Positions 8,353 through 56,747 of a DNA stretch of 64,000 nt are shown piece after piece; within the stretch, counting starts at the first letter, position 1, and each line of letters starts with the position of its first letter. Origin of the DNA: a virus (lineage: Duplodnaviria; Caudoviricetes); IMG/VR virus record IMGVR_UViG_3300005686_000039, positions 1,913 to 65,912 of that record; one strand, written 5' to 3'. The notes beneath the pieces were generated by a model. It ran no database searches and was not told the DNA's origin. It worked only from the letters and a program-made list of their open reading frames with translations. The position numbers and the translations under genes are program-made.

Positions 8353-8643
8353 ATGAGTGTGACGATGGACGGCGAGGCCGTCTCGGTTGGCGATCAGGTG
8401 TTCGATGTCGTGTATGGTGTCGGAACGGTCGCCGAACTACTTGACAACGGCATCGTTGTGAGTTATGCGTCGATGCGTCGGCGTATGACCTACAACAGTT
8501 CGGGCATTCTTCGTATGAAGTCCGCACGGACATTGTACTGGCGTGACCCGATCCTCGTAGCGCCCGCCAAGGCGGACGCAAACTGGTCGAAGATCCGGGC
8601 GGTGTGCATGGCGGTGGTCGCTGCGTTCAGGGGGCAGGTATGA
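8353..8643 (+). CDS. Hypothetical protein, 96 aa
   Basis: AAGGAG RBS, operon position. Confidence 0.7.
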   Translation: MSVTMDGEAVSVGDQVFDVVYGVGTVAELLDNGIVVSYASMRRRMTYNSSGILRMKSARTLYWRDPILVAPAKADANWSKIRAVCMAVVAAFRGQV

Positions 8644-9353
8644 GCAGTCTGCGTGCAATCTCGACCGGCGTTTACACGCCCCCGCCGCAGTGGCCGGCGG
8701 GCAACCCCGCGCCGTCTGGCAACGTCTTCTTCCCCAACACCACCGGCTCTCCCCTGTCGCACGTCTTCACCGTCGAAGGCGCCGTGTGGGCCATTCAGGC
8801 GTGGGGCCTGCAGGCCGGCGACGAGATCATCGTCGAGATGGTTGAGGGCTGCGGCAGCGGCGACGTGTTCGAGCAGATGACCCTTGGGTGCTGCGCGATC
8901 TCGCTGACCCAGGACCGCAACACCATCCTGCTGCCGATCGAGGGGCGCTACCGCCTCAACGTCGTGACCGGCGACCCGGAGGACATCTACGTCCGCGCCC
9001 GCCCGTCGCCCATCTCACCCGAGATCGCGGCCAAGATGCTGTGCTGCGAGACGCCGACCGGCGGCGGCGCGGCTTCGACCGTCGCGAACGGCGACGGTTC
9101 GCTCACCGTCACGGGCGGCCCGAACTACACCGTTAACACGAACCCGATCGGTATGGCTGCGGCGCTCGCCGGCAGTGCTCCGGCGGTTCTCACGCTGGCC
9201 ACCGCGCTCGGCGTGAACTTCGCACCGGCGGCGGCGCCCGCCACGTCGGTCGACCCCTCGACGCCCACGACGATGTTCGGCGCGCGTACCGCCCTCCTGG
9301 GCGAGCCGGCGGCGTGGCTGTCGATCGCAGGCTTCAAAGTACCCGCTTACTGA
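8640..9353 (+). CDS. Virion fibre/decoration-like protein, short paralog of 9363-10970
   Basis: ATGA overlap at 8640; shares N- and C-terminal motifs with the next gene. Confidence 0.65.
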   Translation: MSSLRAISTGVYTPPPQWPAGNPAPSGNVFFPNTTGSPLSHVFTVEGAVWAIQAWGLQAGDEIIVEMVEGCGSGDVFEQMTLGCCAISLTQDRNTILLPIEGRYRLNVVTGDPEDIYVRARPSPISPEIAAKMLCCETPTGGGAASTVANGDGSLTVTGGPNYTVNTNPIGMAAALAGSAPAVLTLATALGVNFAPAAAPATSVDPSTPTTMFGARTALLGEPAAWLSIAGFKVPAY

Positions 9354-9362
9354 GGATCGAGC

Positions 9363-10970
9363 ATGCAGCGCAGAAGTGAGTTTCTTTTCAACGGGTTCAA
9401 CCAGGCCCTTGCCATCGGCAACGGGTCTGGCGTGTTCACCGTGTCTGAGAGCGCCGTCCGCATCGGCGTGTTCGGCCTGACCGGGGCGCAGAAGCTCCCG
9501 ATCGAGTACCGCGTCGAGGGCCGCCTGTCCAAGACGCAGGGCCAGGATTTCTACTGGACCCCGTTCGTCGAGGCGGGCGCCGCCGTCGAGCTGAGCACGG
9601 CCAGCACGGTCGTCATCCTGACCGTCCCCGGCACCTACCGCGTGAACGTGTCGTCGATCTCGGTGAGCGCCCCGGTTGTCGTCTCCATGCAGGACATGGA
9701 CCGCGACGAGGTGCACACGCGGTTCGTCTACGTGCACGGCACGGGCATCGGCGGCGGTGCGCCCGTCGCGTCGCACGCTCCGGCCCTCATCGGCTCGCCG
9801 GATGGCACCATCACCACGGGCGCGTCTGGCACCGATAATCAGACCCTCGCGGTCTCCGTCAATCCGGCGGCGACTGGCGCGGCTCTGGCGGGCAACGCTG
9901 GCGCCGTCGCGGCACTCGCGGCGGCTCTCGCCCCAGCGCTCAACGCGCACGCTCCGGCGGCTGTGGCGTCTGCGGACGGCACGATCGACGTTGTGACCGC
10001 AGGTCAGAACTTCGACATTGGCGTCAACGCGGCCAACGTGGCGATCGAGATTGCTACCACGCCGGCTGCCATCACGACCCTGGTTGCGGCGCTGGCTCCC
10101 GGTCTGAACGCTCACGCACCGGCGACGATCTCCAACCCGGATGGGGTCATCGACGTGACCCAGGCCGGGCAGGCGTTCACGCTGGACTTCGATCCGGCGG
10201 CTGCGGCGTCTGAGATCGCGGCCACGCCTGCAGCTATCACGACCCTTGTCACGGCGCTCACGCCCGGCCTCAACGCCCACGTCCCGGCGACGATCGCGTC
10301 CTCGGATAGCAGCGTCACGGTCACGGCGTCTGGCACCGATAGCCAGACCTTCAACCTGCAGGTCAACTCGGCGGGCATCGCGGCGTCGCTGATCTCGGCG
10401 GACGCTGGCAACGATATCGTGCTCGGCACCGACAGCAAGCTCAAGCTCGTCGAGACCGTCACCGCGCTCGCGTACAACCCGACGACCAAGGTGTTCACGT
10501 ACACCGACGAGGCCGGTGCGGCGACGACCTACGACCTGTCTGCGCTCGCTGTGGACATCTACGTGAACGGCGCGACATTCAACGCCGGCACGGGCGTCCT
10601 GACGCTCACCGACAACGACGGCACGTCGCCCGACGTGGTGGTCGACCTGTCGGCCTACAAGGTGACGTGGACCGACAATGGCGATGGCACCCACACGCAC
10701 GCCCAGGCCGGCGCGACGTACGTGCTCGACTTCAACGCCGCCGCGCTGCCCTACAGCAACGTGGCTTCGGGTATGGCCGCGACCGACGTGCAGGCCGCGA
10801 TCGACGAGCTGGAGAACGCGCTGAACACGCCGCCGGCCGCAGCCGCCCCGGCAACCAGCGACGACCCCAGCATCCCCACCACCCTCACCGGGACAGCCAG
10901 GACGGTCTTGCTCGCCGACCCCGATGGCTGGTTCACCATCGGCGGCAAAAAAGTCCCGTTCTGGAACTAA
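9363..10970 (+). CDS. Ala-rich repeat fibre-like virion protein, 535 aa
   Basis: Four roughly 50-aa repeats (NAHAPA...DG.I.V...AAI..L..AL.P.L). Confidence 0.7.
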   Translation: MQRRSEFLFNGFNQALAIGNGSGVFTVSESAVRIGVFGLTGAQKLPIEYRVEGRLSKTQGQDFYWTPFVEAGAAVELSTASTVVILTVPGTYRVNVSSISVSAPVVVSMQDMDRDEVHTRFVYVHGTGIGGGAPVASHAPALIGSPDGTITTGASGTDNQTLAVSVNPAATGAALAGNAGAVAALAAALAPALNAHAPAAVASADGTIDVVTAGQNFDIGVNAANVAIEIATTPAAITTLVAALAPGLNAHAPATISNPDGVIDVTQAGQAFTLDFDPAAAASEIAATPAAITTLVTALTPGLNAHVPATIASSDSSVTVTASGTDSQTFNLQVNSAGIAASLISADAGNDIVLGTDSKLKLVETVTALAYNPTTKVFTYTDEAGAATTYDLSALAVDIYVNGATFNAGTGVLTLTDNDGTSPDVVVDLSAYKVTWTDNGDGTHTHAQAGATYVLDFNAAALPYSNVASGMAATDVQAAIDELENALNTPPAAAAPATSDDPSIPTTLTGTARTVLLADPDGWFTIGGKKVPFWN

Positions 10971-18053: not shown

Positions 18054-18998
18054 ATGACCCGTCGTGCAATCCCGGCTGCTGCGGGCTACCCGCAGTATTC
18101 CGGCAACCTCATCCACCCGGTTATCACCCAGGAGTTGATCGAGCGCTTCTACTGCTCGACCATCTTCGGTGAGATCTCGACCACCAACTACCTCGGTCAG
18201 CTCAACGCTGGCGGCGACCAGATCACCTTCTGGCGCGAGCCCTGCGTCATCGTCCGCGACCACATCAAGGACGGATCCATCGTGCACGACACGCTGGAGA
18301 GCGCGCCCATCACGCTCGTCATCGACAAGGCGAAGGAGTTCTCGCTCAAGATCGCCCGCGTCGACGAGAAGATGATGCAGATGTGGGAGACGTTCAAGAA
18401 CTCGTTCTTGAAGGGCGCCTCGCGCGAGCTGGCCAAGCAGATCGACTGCGAGATCCTGGGCACGGTCTACGCCGACGTGGACTGCCGGAACAGCGGCGGC
18501 AACGCCGGCTGCGTCAGCCAGTCCTACAACCTCGGCCAGCCCGGCAACCCGGTCGTCGTGACGCCCGGCAACATCATTCAGGTTCTCTCGGACCTGCACG
18601 GCACTCTCAACGAGGCGTGCATTCCCCGTGAGGGTCGCTGGATCGTGTTGCCGTCCGTGTTCGAGGTGGCGCTGATCAACAGCCCGCTGCAGAACGCGTA
18701 CGTCACCGGCATGTCGATGTCGCCGATGCTGAATGGCAAGCTGCCCACGCAGATCATGGGCTTCGATGTCTACATCAGCGACAACGTCAGCCGCGTGTTC
18801 GACGCCGGCACCGGCACCTGGGCCTACAACATCCTCTGTGGCACCAAGGCCGGCATCGTGTTCGCGTCGACGCTGAACGACACGCGCACGATCGAGGATG
18901 CGAATAGCTGGGACCGATACTTTCAGGGCCTTCAAGTGTTCGGATACGATGTGATCCAGCCCTCGGCCCTCGCCCACCTGTACGCTCGCGTGGCGTAA
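18054..18998 (+). CDS. Major capsid protein
   Basis: 314 aa after the scaffold; C-terminal GLQVFGYDVIQP.AL motif typical of HK97-fold coat proteins. Confidence 0.8.
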   Translation: MTRRAIPAAAGYPQYSGNLIHPVITQELIERFYCSTIFGEISTTNYLGQLNAGGDQITFWREPCVIVRDHIKDGSIVHDTLESAPITLVIDKAKEFSLKIARVDEKMMQMWETFKNSFLKGASRELAKQIDCEILGTVYADVDCRNSGGNAGCVSQSYNLGQPGNPVVVTPGNIIQVLSDLHGTLNEACIPREGRWIVLPSVFEVALINSPLQNAYVTGMSMSPMLNGKLPTQIMGFDVYISDNVSRVFDAGTGTWAYNILCGTKAGIVFASTLNDTRTIEDANSWDRYFQGLQVFGYDVIQPSALAHLYARVA

Positions 18999-19001
18999 CT
19001 C

Positions 19002-19026
19002 AAACCCCTGAAAACATTGGGGTTTT
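19002..19026 (+). terminator. Possible intrinsic terminator after the capsid gene
   Basis: AAACCCC-N10-GGGGTTTT. Confidence 0.5.
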
Positions 19027-19130
19027 CGCGGTTCTATCAGGTCAGACAATCAGTGCAAAAAGCTGTAGACATAAACTCCAGAACGGTGTATCTAGGGACA
19101 GTGTTCCTAGATACCAAAGGGGGTGTGTCT

Positions 19131-19814
19131 ATGGCTATGAGCAAGGAAGAACTGGCCGCCAGGAAGCGCGAGTTGCGTGCGCAGATGAAAGCCAACGACC
19201 CGGAGCGGTACGCGGAAGAGAAGCGGAAGAACCGCGAGCGCAACAACGCTCGCTATGCCGCCGATCCCGAATACCGCGCCCGTGTCAACGCGCGGAACAA
19301 GGAGGCGAAGCGCCTGGAGCGGGTTGCCATGCAAACCGATCCGGCCGTGCGAGACCGAGTGAACGCGCAGTGGCGCAAGTGGTACTACGCCAACGGCGGC
19401 AAGGAGCAGGCGGCGCGCAAGCGAGCCAACCGGGCAGCCCGAGGTGTGTGCAGGCTCTGCGCTACACCAGTTCACGCGCGGTCTTCGATGTGCGAGAAGC
19501 ACCACTGGATGGTGCTGTGCAACAACCACGGGCTGCCGACTAGCCAGTGGGAGATGCTTCGCGCGCTCGCCGAAGCGCAAGACTACAAGTGCGCATACTC
19601 CGGCGTTCCGCTCGTGCTTAGTAAAGGGCTGACGATCGATCACGTCATACCGAAGAAGTCGCCGTTCTACCCCGGCGATCACGACTTCACGAACATGAAG
19701 ATCGTGCATCGGCGGGTCAACACCGCGAAGAACGACATGCCGCTTGACGAGTTCCTGCGCATGGTCGAGAACGTCTACAACGTGTCGGTAGTACCCAGGT
19801 ACACCAAACAGTGA
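19131..19814 (+). mobile_element. Free-standing HNH endonuclease gene
   Basis: C..C Zn motifs, LTIDHVIP...VHRRVNTAKND; basic N-terminus; AAAGGGGG RBS; interrupts the head operon. Confidence 0.8.
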
Positions 19815-19827
19815 AAGGAAGGCAGCA

Positions 19828-20490
19828 ATGCTGCATCAGCTATTTAATGGGGGTCAGCGCACCCGCAACCTCGATTGGGCGATGTTCCCCCAGGTCGCCC
19901 CTGGGATCGACGAGCCCATGGAGAGCGACGCTCGTCGCTCTCACGTCATGTTCTCGCTGACCCGCGACCTCTGGTTCGGCGGCGTCAGCGGCGTGACCTC
20001 GTCCGCTGGCCCGTGTGGCTGCGGCTGCGGCTCGACCAACAGCGGGTGCAAGGGCTCTATCGCCCTGAACCACTACATCAGCGAGACGCCGATCGTGGCC
20101 GGCGATGTGATCCAGACGCACATCCTGCCCCGCCGGTCGATGCTGATGTTCGTGCACTGGTCGGTCGAAAGCCCGATCGATCCGTTCACGTTCGACCTGC
20201 GCGTTCGCGGGCAGGCGGCGTCGATGGGTGGCACCGAGGCTGCGCCGGTCAACCTCGTCCTGCAGGCGGGCATCAACGGCACCGTGGCGGACAGCGGCGT
20301 GATCGACGTGTCGGCCGTCAACGGCGGCCCGCTGTACCTCGACCAGAACGACTTCATCGAGATGGTCGTGAACAGCCTTCCGCCGGCCGGCGCGTCTTCC
20401 GGCTGCTCGGACTGCGCGAGCGGCGGCATCCACGGACTTCGCGTCCTGATCTCGCCGGTCGTGATGGAGTTCCAGCGCGGCTCGTGGTGA
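19828..20490 (+). CDS. Putative head decoration protein with CGCGC and CSDC
   Basis: First structural-like gene after capsid/HNH; beta-rich. Confidence 0.55.
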   Translation: MLHQLFNGGQRTRNLDWAMFPQVAPGIDEPMESDARRSHVMFSLTRDLWFGGVSGVTSSAGPCGCGCGSTNSGCKGSIALNHYISETPIVAGDVIQTHILPRRSMLMFVHWSVESPIDPFTFDLRVRGQAASMGGTEAAPVNLVLQAGINGTVADSGVIDVSAVNGGPLYLDQNDFIEMVVNSLPPAGASSGCSDCASGGIHGLRVLISPVVMEFQRGSW

Positions 20491-20535
20491 GCCCGCTGCC
20501 TGCACAGCGAGACCAGCGTGGGAGCGTACTCGCTC

Positions 20536-20559
20536 GGGGCCGGGGTAACACCCGGCCCC
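20536..20559. terminator. GC hairpin
   Basis: GGGGCCGGG-GTAACA-CCCGGCCCC, intergenic. Confidence 0.4.
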
Positions 20560-20587
20560 ACCCAACACCAACAGAAAGGGTCCAACG

Positions 20588-20971
20588 ATGGCTGCACCTG
20601 TACGTCAAGCTCCGTTCCTGCTCGATGAGCGCAACGGTCGCATCTTCCCATTCGATCCAATCCTGGCCAAGCACCGCGCGATGAAGCCGCACTATAAGGC
20701 TCCCGTGGTGGTGAGGCCCGCCGCCGAGCAGGCGCGCGAGGACATGGTGAACTACCACGAGCGCCCCGTCCCGCCTGTCGAGCAGCGCCCTGTCGTTCAG
20801 CCGAACGAGCTGGAGACCCAGCAGCCCGAAGCCAAGGCCGAGAAGAAGGACGGTCGCAGCAAGGCCGCCCGCGACGCGCGCAAAGCGCAGCAGCAGGCGC
20901 CGCAACTGACCGCGCCGGCGCAGAGCGATATCGACGACATCATCGGCGACCTGGGCGGCGATACGGAGTGA
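20588..20971 (+). CDS. Hypothetical protein, 127 aa
   Basis: AAAGGG RBS, operon position. Confidence 0.65.
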   Translation: MAAPVRQAPFLLDERNGRIFPFDPILAKHRAMKPHYKAPVVVRPAAEQAREDMVNYHERPVPPVEQRPVVQPNELETQQPEAKAEKKDGRSKAARDARKAQQQAPQLTAPAQSDIDDIIGDLGGDTE

Positions 20972-20974
20972 CCC

Positions 20975-21715
20975 ATGTCTTGCGATCAGGGCTGCACGAC
21001 GGTAGGCACCATTCTTGACCGGGTGTCGGGGCTTCTCAACGACAGAGACCCCGCGCTCGGCAACGTGCGTTGGTCCCGTGCAGATCTGATCGGCCACCTG
21101 AACGAAGCGTTGTGCGAGCTGTCGGCGCACGTCCCGGATGCCTTCGCCGAAGTGCTCGACATCGTGCTCAAGCCGGGCGCGCAGCAGAAGCTCGCCGACA
21201 AGTTCGGCGGGCTGATCTCCATCGAGGCGCACTATGCCAACGGCGAGGCGCGGCCGGTCAGCGAGGCGAACTACCGCTATGCCAAGATCTTCAAGAAAAA
21301 GCCGTGCCTGGCTCGCAATGCTTGTGGCGGCGGCACTGGCGATCCGTGTCGCGACTACCGACTGAAAAGCTACGTGAAGAACCCGGTCGACGACACGGTC
21401 TTCACGGTCGAACCTCCGGTCCCTCCGGGCTGCAGCATTACCGTCAAGGCGACTGTGTACGGGCGCCCGTCGCGGTTCTGCTCCGCCGACGAGAAGAAGT
21501 GCCTTGGCATCGGCTGCGAGTACGAGGCGCAGGTCGTCAACTGGATCTTGTACCGCGCGTTCTCGGTCGACATGGAGAGCACGCAGTCGCGTGACAACGC
21601 GAAGCTCTACTACGAGCTGTTCAATCGCGGCATCGAGTTGAAGAACCGCGCCGCCCTGCGCGTCGAGAAAGAGATCGACGAGGCGGCGGGCAACAGGACC
21701 GGGAGGCAACGATGA
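20975..21715 (+). CDS. Head-tail adaptor-like protein (DUF6682-like)
   Basis: RWSRADLIGHLNEAL...PDAF motif; 10 Cys. Confidence 0.6.
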   Translation: MSCDQGCTTVGTILDRVSGLLNDRDPALGNVRWSRADLIGHLNEALCELSAHVPDAFAEVLDIVLKPGAQQKLADKFGGLISIEAHYANGEARPVSEANYRYAKIFKKKPCLARNACGGGTGDPCRDYRLKSYVKNPVDDTVFTVEPPVPPGCSITVKATVYGRPSRFCSADEKKCLGIGCEYEAQVVNWILYRAFSVDMESTQSRDNAKLYYELFNRGIELKNRAALRVEKEIDEAAGNRTGRQR

Positions 21716-22350
21716 GCTGCGGCTGCGACGCCCGCGACGACATGGTCCCCCTCGACGAGTTCGTCCCCTACGTCCTCCCGAGCGTGCCCGAGGCGCCCGA
21801 AGAGATGGTGGCGCACTACGTCCGCATGGCCGCGATCGACTTCTGCCGCCGGACGCACGTCGTCAAGGCAACGGTCACGTTCGATCTGCAGAAGGGCGTG
21901 AGCGACTACTGCTTCGACTGCATCGATGGGCTCAAGCCTTTCGTGCTCAACAGCGTGTGCCTCGGGAGCAAGAAGCTGCCGTCGCTGCGCGAGACACCGT
22001 GCCCCGGCCCGACGTGCGCCTACGGGTACTCCTATGACGGAGCGTACGATGTTCTTGTGTTCCCGGCCCCGAAGTGCGACGTGCCCCAAGGGCTGTCCAT
22101 CGAGGCTGTTATGCAGCCTGACCAAGATGCTTGCGAGCTGCCGCGCATCCTTTACGAGCAATACGCAGAGGCCCTGGCTGACGGCGCACTACACCGTCTG
22201 CTGTCTCTACCGACCGCAGACTGGTTCAACAACTCGGCCGCCGGCATCCACATGCGGCGGTTCATCAACGCGATGACGCAGGCCAAGCTGCTCGTGGCTC
22301 GCCGTAACGTCAACGGCCCGCTCGTGGCGCAAGCGCCGAGGTGGGTGTGA
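21712..22350 (+). CDS. Head-tail adaptor/connector-like protein
   Basis: LDEFVPYVLPSVP.AP....VRMAAIDFCRRT motif; 10 Cys. Confidence 0.6.
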   Translation: MSCGCDARDDMVPLDEFVPYVLPSVPEAPEEMVAHYVRMAAIDFCRRTHVVKATVTFDLQKGVSDYCFDCIDGLKPFVLNSVCLGSKKLPSLRETPCPGPTCAYGYSYDGAYDVLVFPAPKCDVPQGLSIEAVMQPDQDACELPRILYEQYAEALADGALHRLLSLPTADWFNNSAAGIHMRRFINAMTQAKLLVARRNVNGPLVAQAPRWV

Positions 22351-23120
22351 TGGGATGCTCGACATGCAAATGCGAGGACGCTCACCCATTGTCGTCGTGC
22401 GGCTGTGGCTGCAAGCCGCCGCCGAAGCCCTGCGCGCCGCCAACGATCCTGTCGTGCGCGGCGAAAGTAAAAGTGCTCGCAAGCGACGCAGGCGTCGTCT
22501 TGCCAAGGAGCTGCATCTGCACTGACGGGCTCGACGTGTCGCTGCTCAAGATGCGCGTGCGCCGGCGCGGCGAATGCGAGTGGACCCTGGAGTACCCCGC
22601 GTGGGATCTCGACGACGCGGGCGGCGTGCGCTTCCTGCTCGATGACCTGTTTTTCAAGCAGAAGCTCGGGCGCTACGAGGCGGAGCTGGCCTACGACGGA
22701 GAGCGCTGCGCGACCATCGAGATCGACTACCGCAAGAAATGCCCGGTATCGGCGAAGCGACCTGCGCCGATCAAGCGCGTCGAGCCGTGCTATCCGAGCG
22801 CCCCGCAAGGAGTGAACCCCGTGTTCGAGCCCCTTTACACGTTCTGCACGTCGCTGTGTTCGATCATGGAGAAGGACGCCCAAGTGCTCCCGATCTGCGA
22901 TCCGTCGCTGTTGTGCGGCCTCGTGCTGTGCCGCCCGGTCCAGCTCGCGATCGACGACGGTGTGCACCACGAGCTGGTGGAGTTCTCAGCCTGCCAGTCT
23001 GGCGCAGTCGTCGTCACGCGCGGCGTGGGCGGTACGACGCCCCAGCGCTTTCCGGCGGGCTCTCGTGTGATGTTCGTATGGTCGCCGGACAACGTGACCG
23101 CCGCAGTCGAGGGGTGCTGA
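22350..23120 (+). CDS. Very Cys-rich virion protein (21 Cys in 256 aa)
   Basis: TGATG coupling; MGCSTCKC...CGCGC; C-terminal V.RGVGGT.P..FPAGS resembles tail-associated beta domains. Confidence 0.65.
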   Translation: MGCSTCKCEDAHPLSSCGCGCKPPPKPCAPPTILSCAAKVKVLASDAGVVLPRSCICTDGLDVSLLKMRVRRRGECEWTLEYPAWDLDDAGGVRFLLDDLFFKQKLGRYEAELAYDGERCATIEIDYRKKCPVSAKRPAPIKRVEPCYPSAPQGVNPVFEPLYTFCTSLCSIMEKDAQVLPICDPSLLCGLVLCRPVQLAIDDGVHHELVEFSACQSGAVVVTRGVGGTTPQRFPAGSRVMFVWSPDNVTAAVEGC

Positions 23121-23123
23121 CCC

Positions 23124-24743
23124 ATGCACATGAATACGACCCACTCGATCACCGCCGACGCGACGAAGGTACGCATCACGGGGCTCGACGCGGCGATCTG
23201 CCCGGCGATGGACGGCGCGCACCACGCGCGCCTGGAGATCTACACCGCGCTCGGGAGCGAGGTTGTCGTCGCGACGGAGTGCAGCGGGACCGAGTTGACG
23301 ATCGCGCGAGGCTACGCGGGCACCGAGCCCCGTGACTGGCCGGCGTTTGCGTGTGTGAAGCTGCTGGAGATAGTCGATCAGCCTCTCGGTGAGACCGAGC
23401 GGGGCGAGTGCTGCGAGTGTCTTGATGGCGTATCTGTTGGTACGGGTCTGATCCTAACTCGCCCCGACCCGTGCGCGTTGCGTTTCGACTTGAAGCCGTC
23501 CGGCGTGGTGCCTGGCGTCTACTGCGGCATGACTGTCAACGAGTTCGGTCAGATCACGTCGCTCGATCCGTCGTTCCCGGCGTCGTGCATCCCGGTGTTC
23601 AATCCGTGCGGCCCGTGCGACGAGGGTGGCACCGGCGGAGGTGCGGTCAATGCTGCCACGGTTTCTTACACGCCGATCTCGGCGCCGCCGTTCGCCCTCG
23701 GCCCGACCGTCCAAGACGCAATCCGCCAGCTCGAAGCAGGGCTCGCGGCAATCCCGCCTCCGAGCGGAATTGAAACTGCGGCGGCTGGCGCTGGCATTGT
23801 TGTCGGCGGGACATCAACGGACATCACGATCAGCCTTGAGCCTAGCGGCATCGCACCGGGGACGTACGCCGGGTTCACGATTGACCAGTATGGTCGCGTC
23901 ACTGGCTACACCGCAGTCGGTGGCGGCGGGGGCTCCGTTACCCTACCCAACTTCGCCGACGCTGCGCCCATCAACATCAGCTACAACGCCGGCACGAACA
24001 CCTACACATGGACGATCGACGACGCCGGCATCGGGGCCAAAGGCGTCGTATCGCTTGCGAACCCGACGCAGGTCACGGCGGGCACCGCAGCCAACGACGA
24101 CGTGATCAGCTACCAGTCGCTCGCGCTCGTCAAGGCGGGCGTGGAGGCCGACTACAACAACCAGATCGCCATCGAGCGCGCGAGGATCGACCAGAACGAC
24201 CTCGACATCAACTCGATGAACACGCACATCGGCGACATCGAGGCCACCACGATCACGGGTACGGATGGCCTCTCGGGTGGCGGCGACCTGTCGGCGAACC
24301 GCCAGATCAAGCTCGACTACGACAGCCTGCCGGCGCACACGATCCTCGATCCGATCGACCTAGCGAACGACAAGCTGTCGTACTTCGACGCGAGCGCGGG
24401 CGTCCACAAGTCGATCAAGCTGCAAGAGCTGGCCGACATGATCGGTGCGCCTCGGGCGGCGGCGCTCTGCACGAGCACGGGCACGATCGTCTCGCACCGG
24501 AACGTCGCAAGCGTGTCGCCGAGCGGGGCGGGCGTGTTCAACGTCACGCTCGCGTCGCCGATGCCGAGCGTCAACTACATCGTCAACGCCATGGCGCACG
24601 ATCCGTCGCCGGGCACGCGCGGCGTGTGCGACGGCGTGCTGGTGGTGATACAGAGCGCGACCGTGTTCACACTGCACTTCACCAACGGCAACGGCCTCGC
24701 GGCGAGCGCGTCGCGGTTCTCGTTCCAAGTCTGTTCGCTGTGA
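23124..24743 (+). CDS. Tail/fibre-like protein with Cys-rich N-terminus
   Basis: GECCEC, PCGPC; GLSGGGDLSANR repeat shared with 10993-14070. Confidence 0.65.
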   Translation: MHMNTTHSITADATKVRITGLDAAICPAMDGAHHARLEIYTALGSEVVVATECSGTELTIARGYAGTEPRDWPAFACVKLLEIVDQPLGETERGECCECLDGVSVGTGLILTRPDPCALRFDLKPSGVVPGVYCGMTVNEFGQITSLDPSFPASCIPVFNPCGPCDEGGTGGGAVNAATVSYTPISAPPFALGPTVQDAIRQLEAGLAAIPPPSGIETAAAGAGIVVGGTSTDITISLEPSGIAPGTYAGFTIDQYGRVTGYTAVGGGGGSVTLPNFADAAPINISYNAGTNTYTWTIDDAGIGAKGVVSLANPTQVTAGTAANDDVISYQSLALVKAGVEADYNNQIAIERARIDQNDLDINSMNTHIGDIEATTITGTDGLSGGGDLSANRQIKLDYDSLPAHTILDPIDLANDKLSYFDASAGVHKSIKLQELADMIGAPRAAALCTSTGTIVSHRNVASVSPSGAGVFNVTLASPMPSVNYIVNAMAHDPSPGTRGVCDGVLVVIQSATVFTLHFTNGNGLAASASRFSFQVCSL

Positions 24744-24749
24744 GGCACC

Positions 24750-26534
24750 GTGGCGACCATCCGCACCACACGCTTCGCCGGGCTCCGCCCGGCGGTCTCG
24801 TCGCGCGAGATTGACCGCAATCGAGCAGTAGTTGCGCACAATGCGCGGCTCGTGGACGGGTCTTTGCGCTCGTTTCGCTCGCCAGTGCACATTCGCAGCG
24901 AGACGTTCGACATCAAGACGATCCACCTCCCGAGCGACATGGGCTGCTGCACCGAGCCCGTCGCGTACGACCACTGCGTCTCCATCACTGAGACGCCAAC
25001 CGAGGGGTCGTGCTGCTGCTGGGGGCACATGATCGCGTGGCACCACAACTGCACCGAGCCCGAGTGGGTCGACGTGTGCGAGAAGACGACGTGCCAGCTC
25101 ACACTCCCGGCACCGGCCGTGCCGCTCACGCCGATGCTGCTGGTCGACGGCACGATGAACGACGCCAACTGCGGCGACGACTGCTCGCCGTACAAGGGGC
25201 CGGACCAGCGGTCCTACACGTACACATGGATCAACTGCTCTGGCGCGGAGAGCCGCCCCGCGCCGCCGTCGCCTGCTGTCCTTGCGTACGACGATCAGAC
25301 ATGGAGCTTGTGCGGCTTCGACACGCCGCCGGCCAACGCGGTCGCGGTGAGGATCTATCGCACCAGCTCGACGCTCGAAGACGGCAGCAAGGTGAGCCAG
25401 GCGTTCGACACCACGTTTCAGCTCGTCGAGGAAATCGAACTCGACCCCGGCGCCGCGCTGCCGCCCGCCCTGGCGGGCAACTGCTACGTCGACAATAAGC
25501 GCCTCGCCGACATCGCGTGGGGCACGCTGCTCACGCACCACAACTGCGATCCGCCGGCCTGCATGGATCAGGTCGTCGTCACCGAGCAGGGCTACCACGT
25601 CGGCTTCCACGGCAACGACCTCTACGTCAGCGAGCGCAACGAGCCGCATAACTGGCCCGAGAAGTATCGGTGTGTGCTGCCAGACAAGATCGTCGGCATT
25701 GTCGCGCACTACGACATGGTCTACGTCGTCACGACCGGGCGCCCGTACCGGGTGAACATCGCGTTCCGCGCAGCCGGCGCGGAGGCGGACGCCACGGTCG
25801 ATCCGGTTCCGTACCCGGAGCGGTACCCCTGCCTGCAGCGCCAGACGCTCGTCGAGACCTCGTTCGGCGCGATGTACGTCAGCGAGCGCGGGCTGGTCGC
25901 GCTGCAGCCCAATGGCAACGCCGTGCTCATGTCGAAGCCCCGCATCGGCGAGGACGACTGGATCCGGTTCATGCCCAACATGGCGGTCTGGTGGCAGGGC
26001 AAGTATGTCGGCGTGCGGTCTCCAGCGGGCATCGGGTTCATCTTCGACGTGCTCGACCGGGCGGAAGGTGGCCTCGACCTCGGCGACTTCGTGACGATCG
26101 ACCTGCCGGCGGACGCCATTCACGCCGGGCGCGACGGGCGCCTCTACTACTCCAAGGGCGCGGACCTGTTCGCTTTTGGTGAAGGTACAACTTTCACGGA
26201 GTACACCTGGCGGTCGAAGACGTTCCGCATGAACGCCCCCGTGGCCATGTCGGCGGCGAAAGTGGTGGGCGATTTCGGCGGCCCTGTCACTTTTTCGCTG
26301 TACGTTGGGACATCGAACGTGGCATACTACAGCCGTGTAGTTACATCCAGCGAGCCGTTCCGCCTTCCAGCTCGGGGGCGTTTCATCGAATGGCAGGTGG
26401 AGATCAAGGGGCGTACCCGTGTTCATGAGGTTCACGTCGGGCCGTCTCTTTGGGATCTGGCCCGCGATCTGGAGGACGCCCGAGGCGGGCGCTCCATCAA
26501 CGTCGGAGGGCTGAGAGATGAGGGTGTGGGCTGA
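24750..26534 (+). CDS. Putative tail nozzle/tubular protein
   Basis: 594 aa; N-terminal F.GL.P...A.NA.L.DG.L pattern typical of podovirus tail nozzle proteins; 18 Cys. Confidence 0.6.
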   Translation: MATIRTTRFAGLRPAVSSREIDRNRAVVAHNARLVDGSLRSFRSPVHIRSETFDIKTIHLPSDMGCCTEPVAYDHCVSITETPTEGSCCCWGHMIAWHHNCTEPEWVDVCEKTTCQLTLPAPAVPLTPMLLVDGTMNDANCGDDCSPYKGPDQRSYTYTWINCSGAESRPAPPSPAVLAYDDQTWSLCGFDTPPANAVAVRIYRTSSTLEDGSKVSQAFDTTFQLVEEIELDPGAALPPALAGNCYVDNKRLADIAWGTLLTHHNCDPPACMDQVVVTEQGYHVGFHGNDLYVSERNEPHNWPEKYRCVLPDKIVGIVAHYDMVYVVTTGRPYRVNIAFRAAGAEADATVDPVPYPERYPCLQRQTLVETSFGAMYVSERGLVALQPNGNAVLMSKPRIGEDDWIRFMPNMAVWWQGKYVGVRSPAGIGFIFDVLDRAEGGLDLGDFVTIDLPADAIHAGRDGRLYYSKGADLFAFGEGTTFTEYTWRSKTFRMNAPVAMSAAKVVGDFGGPVTFSLYVGTSNVAYYSRVVTSSEPFRLPARGRFIEWQVEIKGRTRVHEVHVGPSLWDLARDLEDARGGRSINVGGLRDEGVG

Positions 26535-53960: not shown

Positions 53961-54217
53961 GTCGCTTTCTCCTTCGCGCTTTCGCGCAGCTTGTCCAACT
54001 CGTGTTGCGCTGTGTGGCCGGGGGCGCCGCCGGTCATGTAGTAGGCGAGCGCGCCGCACTCGGGGCACTCGCCGACCGGGACCGTGCAGCCGGCTTCCAG
54101 GCGGTCGTAGAGGTCGTTTATGAACCGCGTGTCGCACGCGAGCCCGGTCCACTCGCAGTTGTCACACTCGACGGGGAACTCGCCCTCGTGATAGACGCCC
54201 GTTGTCGTCGACATCAC
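53957..54217 (-). CDS. Zinc-ribbon protein, 86 aa
   Basis: VECDNCEW...GECPECG. Confidence 0.65.
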   Translation of the reverse strand: MMSTTTGVYHEGEFPVECDNCEWTGLACDTRFINDLYDRLEAGCTVPVGECPECGALAYYMTGGAPGHTAQHELDKLRESAKEKAT

Positions 54218-55611
54218 ACACGGATCCTTATGGTCTGGCCGTAGGGTGCGACAACGTCAGTCGTCGCCACCCACAAGACCGGGAACTTCGGCTCGTTGTT
54301 GAAGGCCGTCACCATGTCGGTGAGAACCACCGCGCAGCACGGCTTGATCTTCTCCTTCTCAACGTACTTCCACGCGACTTCCAGATCGGTGCCGCCACCG
54401 CCGCCCGGCTTGAACGTGATCCGATCGTCGGGCTGGAACTGCTGGTGCTCGTTGACGCGAGTGTCCACCCACAGAACGTGGGTCACGCTCGGCCGCACGG
54501 TCTTGATGATAGCGCTGATCTCGGCGCCGAAGGCGGCCAGCTCCTTGTCGGAGATCGAGCCGGACGTGTCGACGATCACGACAAGCGGCGAGCTGGGCTG
54601 CTTCACCAGCGACGGCATGATGATCTTCGACGCGTCGAACCTGCGAGACGGGCGACGGTACGACCAGTCACCGGCGAGCACGGCGGGACCATACTTCCCT
54701 ACGATGAAGCGCCGGAGCTGCGAGGCCCAATTCACCTGCGGCTTCCCGTACTTCTCGATGATCCGCTTCGCCAGACCCGGCTCGTTGCCGATCGCCTTCG
54801 CCGACTGCGCCGCCTGGAGAACCTGGGCTGTCAGCTCGCGCTCGACTTCCTCTTCGGACATGCCTTCGGCCTTGACCGCTTGGTCGAACGCCTCGGTGTC
54901 GAGATCGCCCGACAGGTCGGGCGAAGGAATGTTGGAGCGGCCAGAACCCGGCTCGGGCGAAGACGGCTCGTCAGGCCCAGCTCCATCGGAGCCGTCCCCC
55001 CTGTCGCCCTTGTCGCCTTTCTGGTCCTGGCCGCTCCCCCCGCTGCCGTCCGGTGACTGCTTGTCACCGGGGCGCGATCCCGACTTCTTCCCCTTCCCGT
55101 TCTGCGGTTGCTTCTGCCGCGCCTTGTCGAGCTGATCGTAGATGTCCTCCCACGAGCGCTCGACACCCAGGTGCGGATCCAGACAGATCGCGCCCGGTAT
55201 CGGTTGTGCCTTGCCGGCGAGCACGTCGCACATCTGGTCGATCGTCATGCCCTTCCAGTACGAGAAGTCGTGCTTGTCTTCGAGCAGGGTGCGGTTGATC
55301 ACGAAGTCCTGCGCGATGTTCGCCAGCAGCGGATCGCGGTCGCCCCGACGCAGCATGTGCATCAGGGTCTTGTGTCGCGTCTCGTGCGCCAGCGCCATCA
55401 TGATGTGGCTGGGCTTGAGCTTGGCGACGAACTCGCGGTTGTACTTGATGACCGTCATGCAGTCGGTCGCCATCGTCGGCACGCGGTTGTCCTCGACGAT
55501 CTTCATGGTGGACATGATCGATGCGTCGAAGATGGCGCGGTTGAACAGGCCCGCAACCGCGAGCCTGATCTTGTCCTCTACGCTCTGCTCGGTGGATGCG
55601 GGCTTGCTCAT
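54214..55611 (-). CDS. Metallopeptidase-like plus vWA domain protein (DUF2201-like)
   Basis: HETRH HExxH, NIAQD..IN, VIVDTSGSIS MIDAS, GGGGTD, VLTD. Confidence 0.82.
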   Translation of the reverse strand: MSKPASTEQSVEDKIRLAVAGLFNRAIFDASIMSTMKIVEDNRVPTMATDCMTVIKYNREFVAKLKPSHIMMALAHETRHKTLMHMLRRGDRDPLLANIAQDFVINRTLLEDKHDFSYWKGMTIDQMCDVLAGKAQPIPGAICLDPHLGVERSWEDIYDQLDKARQKQPQNGKGKKSGSRPGDKQSPDGSGGSGQDQKGDKGDRGDGSDGAGPDEPSSPEPGSGRSNIPSPDLSGDLDTEAFDQAVKAEGMSEEEVERELTAQVLQAAQSAKAIGNEPGLAKRIIEKYGKPQVNWASQLRRFIVGKYGPAVLAGDWSYRRPSRRFDASKIIMPSLVKQPSSPLVVIVDTSGSISDKELAAFGAEISAIIKTVRPSVTHVLWVDTRVNEHQQFQPDDRITFKPGGGGGTDLEVAWKYVEKEKIKPCCAVVLTDMVTAFNNEPKFPVLWVATTDVVAPYGQTIRIRV

Positions 55612-55640
55612 TGTGTGGTGTCCTTTGGTACGGTAAGCGC

Positions 55641-55654
55641 GACTGCTCAGTCAC
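55641..55654. promoter_or_regulatory. Palindromic motif variant GACTG-CT-CAGTCAC
   Basis: Between the ATPase stop and the vWA start. Confidence 0.55.
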
Positions 55655-55658
55655 ACGT

Positions 55659-56747
55659 TCAGGCGGCGAGGCCGACGCCGGCCGTGGCGAACTCCCGGTA
55701 CTTCTGCAGCAGGTCGATCCGCTTGAGGATGAACTGCGCCTTCTGCGGACGGGCGAGGACCGAGCGGAAGAACACGCCGATCAGCTCCTTCGGCATGCGC
55801 TCGACGTACTGGAACGCCGTGTCGAACTGCTTCTGGTCCGCGATGCGCTCGACGATGAGCAGCGATTGCAGGTAGCTCGCCGCCAGGTCGTTCGGATAGA
55901 CCGCCGCGCCCGTGGGGTTGGCGACGACTTCCTCGAAGCTGACCAGCTTCTCGGCCATGCGCAGGATCGTCTCGAACTTGAGCGCCGCCGCGTCGCCGAC
56001 CACGGCCGACACCTGCAGCATGCGGTCACGAACACGAACGCCCGTGTCGTCGGCGTGGTACATCACGCGGCTGACGAACTCCCAGGTGCGCGGCGTCGGG
56101 TTGCGCCCTTCCTCGTCCTCCACGTCGACCTCGCCGCAGATCAGCGCCGGGTTCTGCTTGAGCGCAGAGATCACCAGCGGATGGAACTCGGAGCGGATGG
56201 CGTAGGTCTCGAACTCGTCCCACGTCGGGCCGACGTACTCGACGATCATCAGGCGGTTCGCCATCGGGCGAGGCAGGTCGTACGTCACGCCACGGTCCTG
56301 CGGACGATTGCCGGCGCAGACGATGCGCGTCCCCTCGGGCAGGCAGTATTCGCCGAGGCAGCGATCGAGCACGAGCTGGTAGGCCGCCGCCAGGATCGTC
56401 GGCAGGCCCGACGTGATCTCGTCCAAGAAGAGAAGCACGGGCTTGCCCGTCGCCTTGTGCACCGCGTTGACGCGGGCGATCAGGTCCGGCATGAGGCGCT
56501 GCACGAAGTCGCCCTTCTTCGCCGGCACCGGCAGGCCGCCCAGGTCTTCGGGGAGCATCTGCGACAGCCGCACGTCGACCATCGCGTAGCCCAGCTTCTC
56601 GGCCACCTGACCGACGATCGCCGACTTGCCGAGGCCGAAGCCGCCGAGGATGAGCAGCGGCACATCGGTCGCGACGCTGGTCTTGATCATCATCTCCAGC
56701 CCGCCGACGCGAACCGTGTTGTACTTCTGCTGGGTGTTCTTCGCCAT
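55659..56747 (-). CDS. MoxR-type AAA+ ATPase
   Basis: GGFGLGKS Walker A, LFLDEI Walker B, AGNR, L.RPMANR, PTPRTWE. Confidence 0.85.
   Translation of the reverse strand: MAKNTQQKYNTVRVGGLEMMIKTSVATDVPLLILGGFGLGKSAIVGQVAEKLGYAMVDVRLSQMLPEDLGGLPVPAKKGDFVQRLMPDLIARVNAVHKATGKPVLLFLDEITSGLPTILAAAYQLVLDRCLGEYCLPEGTRIVCAGNRPQDRGVTYDLPRPMANRLMIVEYVGPTWDEFETYAIRSEFHPLVISALKQNPALICGEVDVEDEEGRNPTPRTWEFVSRVMYHADDTGVRVRDRMLQVSAVVGDAAALKFETILRMAEKLVSFEEVVANPTGAAVYPNDLAASYLQSLLIVERIADQKQFDTAFQYVERMPKELIGVFFRSVLARPQKAQFILKRIDLLQKYREFATAGVGLAA

What the first reader, a model, noticed from the sequence alone, without database searches (positions are those of the whole stretch)
19828..26534. Strikingly Cys-rich head-tail connector and tail module
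Counted by hand: 6 Cys/220 aa (19828), 10/246 (20975), 10/212 (21712), 21/256 (22350), 14/539 (23124, 11 of them in the first third) and 18/594 (24750). Clusters include CGCGC (twice), MSCGC, MGCSTCKC, CCEC and CCC. The capsid protein has 7 Cys and the 8640 protein has two CC pairs, whereas I see no Cys in the long fibres at 9363 and 10993. Known: tailed-phage structural proteins assemble in a reducing cytoplasm and are usually Cys-poor. Inference: the virion neck may be stitched by metal-thiolate clusters or by disulfides formed after lysis, possibly as a redox-triggered ejection gate.
Basis: partly seen in the sequence, partly recalled or inferred. Interest (0 to 1): 0.75.

Follow-up and report, generated by a model that had tools for sequence, protein, structure and literature searches.

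The report
Cysteine-armoured podophage virion shell
An uncultured 66-kb temperate podophage packs conserved cysteines into seven proteins of its rigid outer particle, most likely as disulfide cross-bracing of a kind recently shown in other phages, while a sister lineage with the same gene order has lost almost all of them.

Summary
All six Cys counts and motifs are correct and in the right frames. Together with the capsid protein, seven proteins hold 86 Cys in 2384 aa (3.6%). Other virion proteins hold 0.27% and non-structural proteins 1.36%.

The module is wider than a neck. It comprises the major capsid protein, a capsid cement protein (19828, not a connector), two stacked adaptor rings, a two-domain tail protein with 8% Cys, a fibre anchor and the nozzle. 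The architecture resembles Ralstonia phage GP4.

GC content does not explain the enrichment. Relatives of 57-67% GC keep the cysteines, and Cys is their most conserved residue type. Cultured cousins are Cys-poor, as is a nested sister lineage with the same synteny (L033 and L012; L033 has 67% GC), so nearly the whole set was lost secondarily.

I found no export signals by eye and no radical-SAM, thioredoxin or DsbA gene.

The best reading is a virion-wide disulfide network for particle robustness, possibly with some metal-thiolate sites, as shown experimentally for phages Milano, Jabs and Pam3. An obligatory redox ejection gate is unlikely.

No coordinates were available, so the bonding chemistry is inferred. 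This scan has noted Cys-rich virion exteriors on other genomes. I class it as a new variant of a known kind.

The parts
18054..18998 (+). Major capsid protein, 314 aa, 7 Cys (2.2%)
   Evidence: Matches phrog_267 (major head protein) at 4e-24. Five of the 7 Cys align with Cys in L001. All 7 are replaced in the 60%-identical L012 capsid.
19828..20490 (+). Capsid cement (decoration) protein with a jelly-roll fold, 220 aa, 6 Cys, all in two Gly-rich loops (63-74 and 193-196)
   Evidence: The AF2 model has pLDDT 73, and both Cys loops are below 50. The top Foldseek hit is GP4 capsid chain 8h89_J (E 6.5e-5, TMt 0.61), followed by the KHP30/KHP40 cement proteins and a chain of the Pam1 capsid entry. 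The Cys loops are shortened or Cys-free in Cys-poor homologues.
20588..20971 (+). Cys-free, charged 127-aa protein of unknown role between the cement and adaptor genes. It lies inside the block but does not share the trait.
   Evidence: Searches gave no family hit. The L001 homologue also has 0 Cys.
20975..21715 (+). Adaptor protein (dodecameric ring in GP4), 246 aa, 10 Cys including an N-terminal C3-x3-C7 pair
   Evidence: Pfam SU10_adaptor PF24175 scores 59.7 bits against a cut-off of 27. PDB chain 8jov_2 (12 chains) matches at 9e-6. Eight of the 10 Cys are conserved in L001.
21712..22350 (+). Second adaptor-like ring protein (counterpart of GP4 gp81), 212 aa, 10 Cys, N-terminus MSCGC
   Evidence: PF24175 scores 36.6 bits and phrog_437 matches at 3e-34. 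The best BLASTP match in phage Gamede is the 206-aa protein that matches GP4 gp81 (chain 8jov_G, 12 chains) at 5e-125.
22341..23120 (+). Two-domain beta-sandwich tail protein, 259 aa, 21 Cys (8.1%). It has a Cys/Pro/Gly-rich N-terminal tail (8 Cys in residues 6-39), 12 Cys in the folded domains and a conserved C-terminal Cys259.
   Evidence: The AF2 model has pLDDT 90.5, with the N-terminal 20 residues near 50. The C-terminal domain matches a chain of the GP4 portal-tail complex, 8jov_1 (Z 9.6, rmsd 2.9, 97 residues aligned). The family has 70 representatives, most with 4-9% Cys.
23124..24743 (+). Tail-fibre-like protein, 539 aa, 14 Cys, 11 of them in the N-terminal anchor (residues 26-165)
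   Evidence: Matches phrog_3484 and phrog_11355 (tail fibre) in the C-terminal part. Nine Cys align with L001. The first 313 aa of the L011 homologue contain no Cys.
24750..26534 (+). Nozzle protein (hexamer in GP4), 594 aa, 18 Cys, 13 of them between residues 66 and 188 (motifs CC and CCC)
   Evidence: Matches phrog_511 at 2e-70 and PDB chain 8jov_A (6 chains) at 3e-20. C66, H75, C76 and C101 are invariant in five relatives. The L033 nozzle has 1 Cys in 593 aa over the same N-terminal segment, with no large gaps.

Best explanation
The window is nearly the whole genome of an uncultured temperate podophage whose particle resembles Ralstonia phage GP4. The parts that match are the capsid with its cement protein, two stacked adaptor rings and the nozzle. 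In this lineage the rigid outer shell of the virion has been loaded with conserved cysteines. The shell comprises the major capsid protein, cement protein, both adaptor rings, a two-domain tail protein, the fibre anchor and the nozzle. [quoted passage not shown] These bonds would form once particles leave the reducing cytoplasm and would lock neighbouring proteins together, raising mechanical, thermal and chemical robustness. The N-terminal Cys tails (C3/C7, C3/C5, the CxCxC runs), the CC/CCC motifs and the C-terminal Cys259 would act as covalent hooks to neighbouring subunits. Some Gly-rich CxC/CxxC loops may instead hold metal ions. Distal fibres and ejected internal proteins stay Cys-free, as they also do in Cys-poor cousins. 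The trait is an optional reinforcement, not part of the core assembly or ejection machinery, because a nested sister lineage dispensed with it. Shown here: the enrichment, its conservation, its distribution over proteins, its secondary loss, and the lack of detectable dedicated enzymes. Export signals were judged absent only from reading the N-termini. Inferred: that the cysteines are oxidised, that bonds cross subunit boundaries, and that the benefit is robustness.
For: Enrichment: the seven proteins hold 3.61% Cys, against 0.27% in other virion proteins and 1.36% in non-structural proteins, P 2e-26.

GC content is not the cause. Relatives of 57%, 65% and 67% GC keep 72-89 Cys in the same seven genes. 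JC1, Itty13 and Gamede (65-67% GC) have Cys-poor homologues of the three genes I could match (adaptor, second ring protein, nozzle) and Cys-poor neighbouring genes. L033 (67% GC, full synteny) has 10 Cys in its seven.

Selection: Cys is the most conserved residue class against L001, at 63% versus 41% overall. Twenty-eight columns are Cys in W, L001 and L023 or L026.

The trait is concerted. In L012 and L033 every gene of the set is Cys-poor at once, with 2% of Cys retained at 40% overall identity.

A Cys-masked concatenated ML tree with outgroups groups L012+L033 with the window clade, apart from L001 and the rest, with support 100. The set was therefore lost secondarily.

Structural roles follow.

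All six cement-protein Cys and the N-terminal Cys tail of the 22341 protein lie in segments AF2 cannot order in a monomer. Cys number in that family shows no even-number bias, 26 even against 23 odd. Both observations fit inter-subunit links.

No radical-SAM, thioredoxin or DsbA gene was found in the six-frame genome. No hydrophobic signal peptide is visible at the N-termini (by eye).

Precedents come from papers. Milano structural proteins are 2.4% Cys and form an extensive disulfide network over capsid, neck, collar and tail. That network uses N-terminal Cys3/Cys7 hooks and a Cys22-23-24 run, and robustness is lost with DTT (PMC10491603). Jabs has about 1,700 disulfides linking capsid, connector and tail (PMC13419713). 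In Pam3 the fibres are disulfide-linked to the wedge (PMC9942802).
Against: No coordinates were returned for the models and the complex predictor was closed. No S-S distance, interface location or oligomer model could therefore be examined.

The CxC/CxxC runs in Gly-rich loops, the invariant C66/H75/C76/C101 in the nozzle and the metallothionein-like N-terminal tail would equally suit metal binding.

Host and habitat are unknown. If the particles live in anoxic settings, disulfides would not form spontaneously.

No oxidising enzyme is encoded, so the route of oxidation is unexplained, as it also is for Milano.
Confidence: 0.55

Rival explanations
1. Metal-thiolate staples. Many of the cysteines, especially the Gly-rich CxCxC/CxxC loops of the cement protein, the N-terminal tail of the 22341 protein and the Cys/His cluster of the nozzle, bind Zn, Fe-S or Cu. 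They would do so within or between subunits, and metal rather than disulfide would hold the shell together. This may coexist with disulfides at other sites.
For: The motifs resemble metal knuckles or metallothionein. The Cys loops are disordered in metal-free monomer models. C66, H75, C76 and C101 are invariant in five nozzles. Four-Cys Fe-S clusters are established in lambda gpL-type tail hubs and in RcGTA (PMC7296036). Metal sites would form in a reducing cytoplasm without any oxidase.
Against: Eighty-six Cys per protomer set is far more than known phage metal sites use. No Pfam metal-binding or gpL-type domain was detected. CC/CCC runs and N-terminal CxxxC hooks are exactly what Milano uses for disulfides. 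The whole set is dispensable in the sister lineage, and the nozzle segment that carries it there aligns without large gaps.
Confidence: 0.2
2. Redox-triggered ejection gate. Disulfides in the adaptor, nozzle and tail proteins keep the channel locked, and contact with a reductant at the host envelope opens it.
For: Both ring proteins and the nozzle N-terminal third are Cys-dense. In cyanophage Pam3, DTT detaches the fibres and leads to tail contraction, and its authors propose a redox-dependent mechanism.
Against: The trait also covers the capsid and cement proteins, which gate nothing. L033 and L012 have homologues of the Cys-rich genes in the same order (all seven in L033, five on the short L012 contig) but keep only 2% of the Cys, so ejection does not need them. 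The periplasm of Gram-negative hosts is oxidising.
Confidence: 0.08
3. Enzymatic thioether or other post-translational cross-linking of Cys arrays by a dedicated maturase, as this scan has noted for radical-SAM/SPASM cassettes next to Cys-repeat fibre proteins in other phages.
For: Dense, short-spaced Cys runs occur in virion proteins. Earlier scan notes describe such cassettes on other genomes.
Against: A six-frame search found no radical-SAM domain in the genome, which CheckV rates 100% complete, and the control genomes all gave hits. The Cys are not in regular CxxxC ladders. No unexplained enzyme gene lies in the structural arm.
Confidence: 0.03
4. No structural role. The enrichment is compositional drift, or a thiol buffer against oxidants or toxic metals.
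For: The cysteines are dispensable in the sister lineage.
Against: Cys is the most conserved residue type in Cys-rich lineages. Positions are shared over about 35-50% identity. Enrichment is confined to specific proteins and segments, while neighbouring virion proteins have none.
Confidence: 0.05

Closest known systems
Agrobacterium myophage Milano, with 7-7-1 and OLIVR4 (PMC10491603)
   Same: Structural proteins are Cys-enriched above the rest of the proteome, and the Cys are conserved in close relatives. The trait spans capsid, decoration proteins, neck and tail. N-terminal CxxxC hooks (LP1 Cys3/Cys7) and consecutive-Cys runs (collar Cys22-24) are used. The function shown is robustness that is lost with DTT.
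   Different: Milano is a flagellotropic myophage with no homologous proteins identified here. Its structural Cys content is 2.4%, against 3.6% for the seven proteins here and 8.1% for one of them. Here the bonds are only inferred, the phage is a GP4-like temperate podophage, and a Cys-free sister lineage is documented.
Mycobacterium abscessus siphophage Jabs (PMC13419713, preprint)
   Same: [quoted passage not shown] This is the same virion-wide logic.
   Different: Jabs is a siphophage of an actinobacterium with an unrelated architecture. Only its abstract was available to me.
Ralstonia podophage GP4 (PDB 8JOV, 8JOU, 8H89) and relatives JC1, Itty13 and Gamede
   Same: The particle parts match: cement protein, adaptor dodecamer, gp81-like second ring and nozzle hexamer. 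There is also a chain resembling the C-terminal domain of the 22341 protein. The order of the matched genes is similar.
   Different: Identity is only about 25%. In the three relatives I examined (JC1, Itty13, Gamede) the counterparts are Cys-poor: the nozzle has 2-5 Cys and the matched adaptor in Itty13 has none. They are therefore not members of the Cys-rich state. I did not count cysteines in GP4 itself.
Cyanomyophage Pam3 fibre-wedge disulfides (PMC9942802)
   Same: Cys-rich regions form covalent fibre attachment, and DTT detaches the fibres and leads to contraction. This is the precedent for a redox-dependent tail.
   Different: The Pam3 bonds are local to the baseplate of a myophage, not virion-wide.
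Lambda gpL / RcGTA hub Fe-S cluster (PMC7296036, citing Tam et al. 2013)
   Same: Conserved cysteines in a tail-tip protein bind a metal cluster.
   Different: That site is a single four-Cys site in one protein of long-tailed phages. No homology was detected here.
Cysteine enrichment in gut-phage major capsid proteins (bioRxiv 10.64898/2026.07.03.736451)
   Same: Convergent, conserved Cys enrichment in HK97-fold capsid proteins is interpreted as stabilisation.
   Different: That study covers capsid proteins only, and most of those Cys are buried. Here the capsid is the least enriched member of a seven-protein set.

Membership tests
Disulfide-networked ('armoured') tailed-phage virions (Milano/Jabs type) | Structural proteins enriched in Cys over the rest of the proteome | tested here: met
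   3.61% against 1.36% (non-structural) and 0.27% (other virion proteins); P 2e-26.
Disulfide-networked ('armoured') tailed-phage virions (Milano/Jabs type) | Cys positions conserved among relatives | tested here: met
   Of 86 Cys, 54 align with L001 at 41% overall identity. Twenty-eight columns are shared with more distant L023 or L026. Family-wide conserved columns are shown.
Disulfide-networked ('armoured') tailed-phage virions (Milano/Jabs type) | The trait spans capsid, neck and tail components | tested here: met
   Capsid protein, cement protein, two adaptor rings, tail protein, fibre anchor and nozzle.
Disulfide-networked ('armoured') tailed-phage virions (Milano/Jabs type) | Cysteines actually form intra- and inter-chain disulfides in the particle | not testable with these tools
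   Model coordinates were not returned and the complex predictor was closed. This needs cryo-EM, non-reducing gels or mass spectrometry.
Disulfide-networked ('armoured') tailed-phage virions (Milano/Jabs type) | Particle robustness is lost on reduction | not testable with these tools
   Experimental; the phage is uncultured.
SU10_adaptor (Pfam PF24175) | Score above the curated gathering threshold | tested here: met
   The 20975 protein scores 59.7 bits and the 21712 protein 36.6 bits, against a cut-off of 27.
GP4-type podophage nozzle (phrog_511; PDB 8jov_A) | Sequence homology over most of the protein | tested here: met
   phrog_511 matches at 2e-70 over residues 1-571. 8jov_A matches at 3.2e-20 over residues 154-507.
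Trimeric jelly-roll capsid cement protein (GP4 gp1, KHP30 gp15, Pam1 gp6) | Jelly-roll fold matching known cement proteins, encoded next to the capsid gene | tested here: met
   The top Foldseek hit is 8h89_J (E 6.5e-5, TMt 0.61), then 7dou_4, 7dn2_1 and 7eel_H. The model is of moderate quality (pLDDT 73). The trimeric state was not tested.
Lambda gpL-type Fe-S tail-tip proteins | Homology to the gpL iron-binding domain with four conserved Cys | tested here: not met
   No Pfam family of that kind was hit by any of the proteins at E <= 0.01. This does not exclude unrelated metal sites.
Radical-SAM/SPASM-matured Cys-repeat virion proteins | Maturase gene in the phage genome | tested here: not met
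   PF04055 was absent from the six-frame search of the complete record, and it was found in all 14 control genomes.

The most novel reading that the evidence does not exclude
The cysteines form a mixed disulfide and metal-thiolate lattice whose redox or metal state the phage exploits. An example would be reduction or metal loss at the host surface loosening the adaptor-nozzle stack. The Cys-on and Cys-off sister lineages would then be two alternative infection or persistence strategies tied to different hosts or micro-habitats. That would make a natural, genetically matched pair for testing what virion cross-linking costs and buys.
Probability: 0.12. Interest if true: 0.75.

Novelty: new variant of a known kind. 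Interest (0 to 1): 0.45.

Why it matters
Disulfide-networked virions have only recently been recognised (Milano 2023, Pam3 2023, Jabs 2026), and I found podophage precedent only for single bonds. This lineage would extend the phenomenon to a GP4-like podophage at a higher Cys density, with 8% in one tail protein.

It also supplies something the published cases lack. Several uncultured relatives keep the cysteines under strong conservation, and a nested sister lineage with the same synteny purged them.

That contrast shows the cross-links are an optional layer under on/off selection. It gives a matched natural pair for asking what drives virion armouring, such as habitat, host or persistence time, and whether it trades off against infectivity.

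Conserved hook positions on a known architecture could also guide engineering of sturdier therapeutic or biocontrol podophages. The relatives include phages of Ralstonia, Burkholderia and Pseudomonas.

Tried and rejected
GC or frame artefact: rejected. GC3 marks the frames, and relatives of equal GC are Cys-poor.

Cys co-occurrence in the 22341 family gave one strong association, C192-C218 (phi 0.94), joined by C134. This is confounded by phylogeny and does not separate a disulfide from a metal site. Parity of Cys number showed no even bias.

Host identification failed:
- No tRNA genes were found.
- No prophage relative was found in 185,579 reference genomes with the nozzle alignment. Alignments A1 and A2 were too divergent to search with.
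- The Atlas search returned only viral clusters.
- Sample accessions were not found in papers.
- The nearest cultured capsids are about 30% identical, from Rhizobium phages.

Thiol-oxidoreductase and maturase search: Pfam scans of 40 proteins and six-frame searches for radical SAM, thioredoxin and DsbA found none. The Erv1/ALR search was uninformative because no control genome gave a hit.

The identity of GP4 chain 8jov_1 was not resolved. Two Gamede candidate proteins gave no PDB match.

The viral-contig scan with the 22341 protein gave no new locus, and phage GenBank records hold no homologue of it.

Full report
**1. What is there**

The window is 64 kb of a 65.9-kb single-contig IMG/VR virus record that CheckV rates complete. 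It has 65% GC.

A rightward structural arm runs from the terminase and portal to a 2100-aa internal protein. A leftward arm holds an integrase, a family-A DNA polymerase, an SNF2 helicase, a primase-like protein and a MoxR/VWA pair.

Every count and motif it gave is correct:

| ORF start | Cys / length |
|---|---|
| 19828 | 6/220 |
| 20975 | 10/246 |
| 21712 | 10/212 |
| 22341 | 21/259 |
| 23124 | 14/539 (11 within residues 26-165) |
| 24750 | 18/594 |
| capsid (18054) | 7/314 |

The 8640 protein has two CC pairs, and the long fibres have no Cys.

**2. More than chance**

| Group | Cys / residues | Percent |
|---|---|---|
| Seven Cys-rich proteins | 86/2384 | 3.61% |
| Other virion or morphogenesis proteins | 17/6348 | 0.27% |
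| Non-structural proteins | 116/8546 | 1.36% |

The second group comprises the portal, the 8640 protein, the fibres, the scaffold, the 20588, 26518 and 26972 proteins and the 2100-aa protein. The binomial P is 2e-26. Virion proteins therefore fall into a Cys-dense set and a nearly Cys-free set.

**3. What the proteins are**

- 20975 and 21712 are SU10_adaptor paralogues (PF24175).
- 20975 matches the 12-copy adaptor chain of the Ralstonia phage GP4 portal-tail complex (8jov_2).
- 21712 corresponds to the Gamede protein that matches GP4 gp81 at 5e-125. GP4 gp81 is also present in 12 copies.
- 24750 is the nozzle (phrog_511 at 2e-70; 8jov_A, 6 copies, at 3e-20).
- 23124 has tail-fibre PHROG matches in its C-terminal part.
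- 19828 had no sequence annotation. Its AF2 model (pLDDT 73) has a jelly-roll fold. The best match is the cement-protein chain of the GP4 capsid (8h89_J, E 6.5e-5), followed by the KHP30/KHP40 cement proteins and a chain of the Pam1 capsid entry. It is a capsid decoration protein, not a connector.
- 22341, the 8%-Cys protein, folds confidently (pLDDT 90.5) into two beta-sandwich domains behind a poorly ordered N-terminal tail. Its C-terminal domain best matches a chain of the GP4 portal-tail complex (8jov_1; Z 9.6, rmsd 2.9, 97 residues). Next come parts of the VP1, Chi and JBD30 tail or capsid entries.

The Cys-rich set is therefore the rigid exterior of the whole particle.

**4. Relatives**

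GenBank phages are only about 25% identical in the nozzle. They include Burkholderia JC1, Pseudomonas Itty13, Ralstonia Gamede/GP4-like phages, Erwinia Pavtok, Stx-converting phages and Vibrio phages. The 22341 protein has no GenBank phage homologue.

Metagenomic and IMG/VR relatives were fetched. Cys totals over the seven genes are as follows:

| Genome | GC | Total Cys |
|---|---|---|
| Window | 65% | 86 |
| L001 | 57% | 72 |
| L002 | 67% | 89 (includes about 3 from an over-extended ORF call) |
| L005 | 65% | 87 |
| L023 | 58% | 33 |
| L026 | 55% | 38 |
| L033 | 67% | 10 |
| L012 | 60% | 7 (five genes only) |

- L033 has full synteny and a capsid 66% identical to the window's.
- L011 has no Cys in its 22341 homologue or in the 313-aa N-terminal part of its 23124 homologue.
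- JC1, Itty13 and Gamede (65-67% GC) are Cys-poor, with 2-5 Cys in the nozzle.
- A distant 51%-GC relative, L007, again has 8.9% and 5.9% Cys proteins at the same position.

GC content is therefore not the cause. The trait is lineage-specific and concerted across genes.

**5. Selection**

Against L001, at 41% overall identity, Cys is the best-conserved residue class. It is conserved at 63% (54/86), ahead of Phe, Tyr, Gly, Pro and Trp. Against L033, at 40% overall identity, Cys is the least conserved class at 2%.

The 22341 family has 70 representatives at 50% clustering. Of 49 aligned members, 45 have at least 3% Cys and most have 4-9%. Columns C58, C123, C192, C197, C218 and C259 are Cys in about 75-95% of members, and C134 in about two-thirds. 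Three members have 0-2 Cys.

**6. Direction of change**

I built a concatenated ML tree from scaffold, capsid, both adaptors and the nozzle, with Cys masked to X and with outgroups. It groups the Cys-poor pair L012+L033 with the window clade, apart from L001 and all other taxa, with bootstrap support 100. L001 lies outside that group. The capsid-only tree agrees.

The window and L001 share 54 aligned Cys. Twenty-eight columns are also Cys in L023 or L026. The common ancestor was therefore Cys-rich, and the L012/L033 lineage lost nearly the whole set.

Replacement residues are diverse: A, V, S, T, G, P and charged residues. The Cys loops of the cement protein are shortened, and the N-terminal Cys tail of 22341 is replaced by unrelated sequence. 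In the nozzle, the Cys-rich N-terminal segment aligns without large gaps in L033, which has no Cys there.

L023 (intermediate) and L033 (poor) come from the same ENA metagenome set, FRDC01. Habitat redox alone may therefore not explain the switch.

**7. Mechanism**

No coordinates are returned for the models and the complex predictor was closed, so bonding is inferred. The pointers to inter-subunit links are:

- All six cement-protein Cys, and the eight Cys of the 22341 N-terminal tail, lie in segments AF2 cannot order in a monomer.
- Conserved Cys sit at the chain ends: C3/C7 and C3/C5 in the two ring proteins, and C259 as the last residue of 22341.
- Cys number in the 22341 family shows no even-number bias.

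The closest precedent is Agrobacterium phage Milano. Its structural proteins are 2.4% Cys. Cryo-EM shows an extensive disulfide network over capsid, decoration proteins, neck, collar and sheath. That network includes N-terminal Cys3/Cys7 hooks and a Cys22-23-24 run. DTT abolishes its resistance to sonication and heat (PMC10491603).

Further precedents are Jabs (about 1,700 disulfides), Pam3 (fibre-wedge disulfides and a DTT effect) and a preprint on Cys-enriched gut-phage capsids.

I therefore favour disulfide cross-bracing for robustness, at 0.55.

Metal-thiolate sites remain a real alternative or admixture, at 0.2. The supporting features are the CxC/CxxC loops, the invariant C66/H75/C76/C101 in the nozzle and the known Fe-S hubs in gpL-type proteins.

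An obligatory redox gate is unlikely, at 0.08. The capsid and cement proteins share the trait, and the sister lineage lacks the cysteines yet has homologues of the same genes in the same order.

Enzymatic thioether stapling is disfavoured because no radical-SAM gene is present.

No thioredoxin or DsbA gene was found. The N-termini show no signal peptides (by eye). Oxidation would therefore have to occur after release, or by host factors. This step is unexplained.

The Cys-free state of the internal and ejected proteins is not special to this lineage. The Cys-poor cousins show it too, and an earlier scan note reports it as ordinary in other podophage groups.

**8. Verdict**

The finding is a new, denser, podophage variant of a recently recognised kind, the disulfide-armoured virion. 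The added evolutionary result is that the armour is conserved where present and was purged wholesale in a nested sister lineage. Host, habitat and actual chemistry remain open.

Noticed in passing
window 19017-19814 (+): An HNH endonuclease gene (265 aa, 5 Cys, PF01844) sits between the capsid and cement genes. L002 and L005 have an ORF at the same place. In L001 the cement gene follows the capsid gene directly (L001 4129 to 4146). It looks like a mobile insertion in the window clade and is not part of the Cys-rich virion set.
   Followed up: partly
window 22818-23117 and 23124-23450 (+): The C-terminal domain of the 22341 protein and the N-terminal domain of the 23124 fibre protein share a motif (DG.HH...E.V....C..G...v.RG..GT.P..fPA). 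BLASTP gives E 1e-5 for the pair, with a Cys at the equivalent position. This suggests a duplicated tail-docking domain.
   Followed up: partly
window 8640-9353 (+): A 237-aa protein upstream of the Cys-free fibres has 5 Cys, including two CC pairs (GCCAIS, LCCETP). It may be another member of the Cys-linked set, for example a fibre adaptor. It was not compared with relatives.
   Followed up: no
window 54214-56747 (-): A MoxR-type AAA+ ATPase lies next to a DUF2201 metallopeptidase/VWA protein. To my knowledge, such pairs act elsewhere as chaperones that insert metal cofactors. Whether they relate to the Cys-rich virion is untested speculation.
   Followed up: no
L007 11397-12518: A distant relative of 51% GC has two short proteins at the position of the 22341 gene, with 15/169 (8.9%) and 12/202 (5.9%) Cys. 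The extreme Cys density at this locus therefore recurs outside the window's clade.
   Followed up: partly
L028 443-1375: A related capsid protein from another branch has 11 Cys in 314 aa (3.5%), more than the window's capsid. The cement-like protein next to it has 6 Cys in 224 aa.
   Followed up: no
L023 and L033 (ENA FRDC01003065.1 and FRDC01000650.1): A Cys-intermediate relative (33 Cys) and a Cys-poor relative (10 Cys) come from the same metagenome accession set. This argues against a purely habitat-level explanation of the trait.
   Followed up: no
L008 12592-13314 and L010 12410-13135: The Cys-poor cultured cousins JC1 and Gamede carry a PAPS reductase (cysH) gene inside their virion gene block. 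The window has no counterpart at the equivalent position.
   Followed up: no
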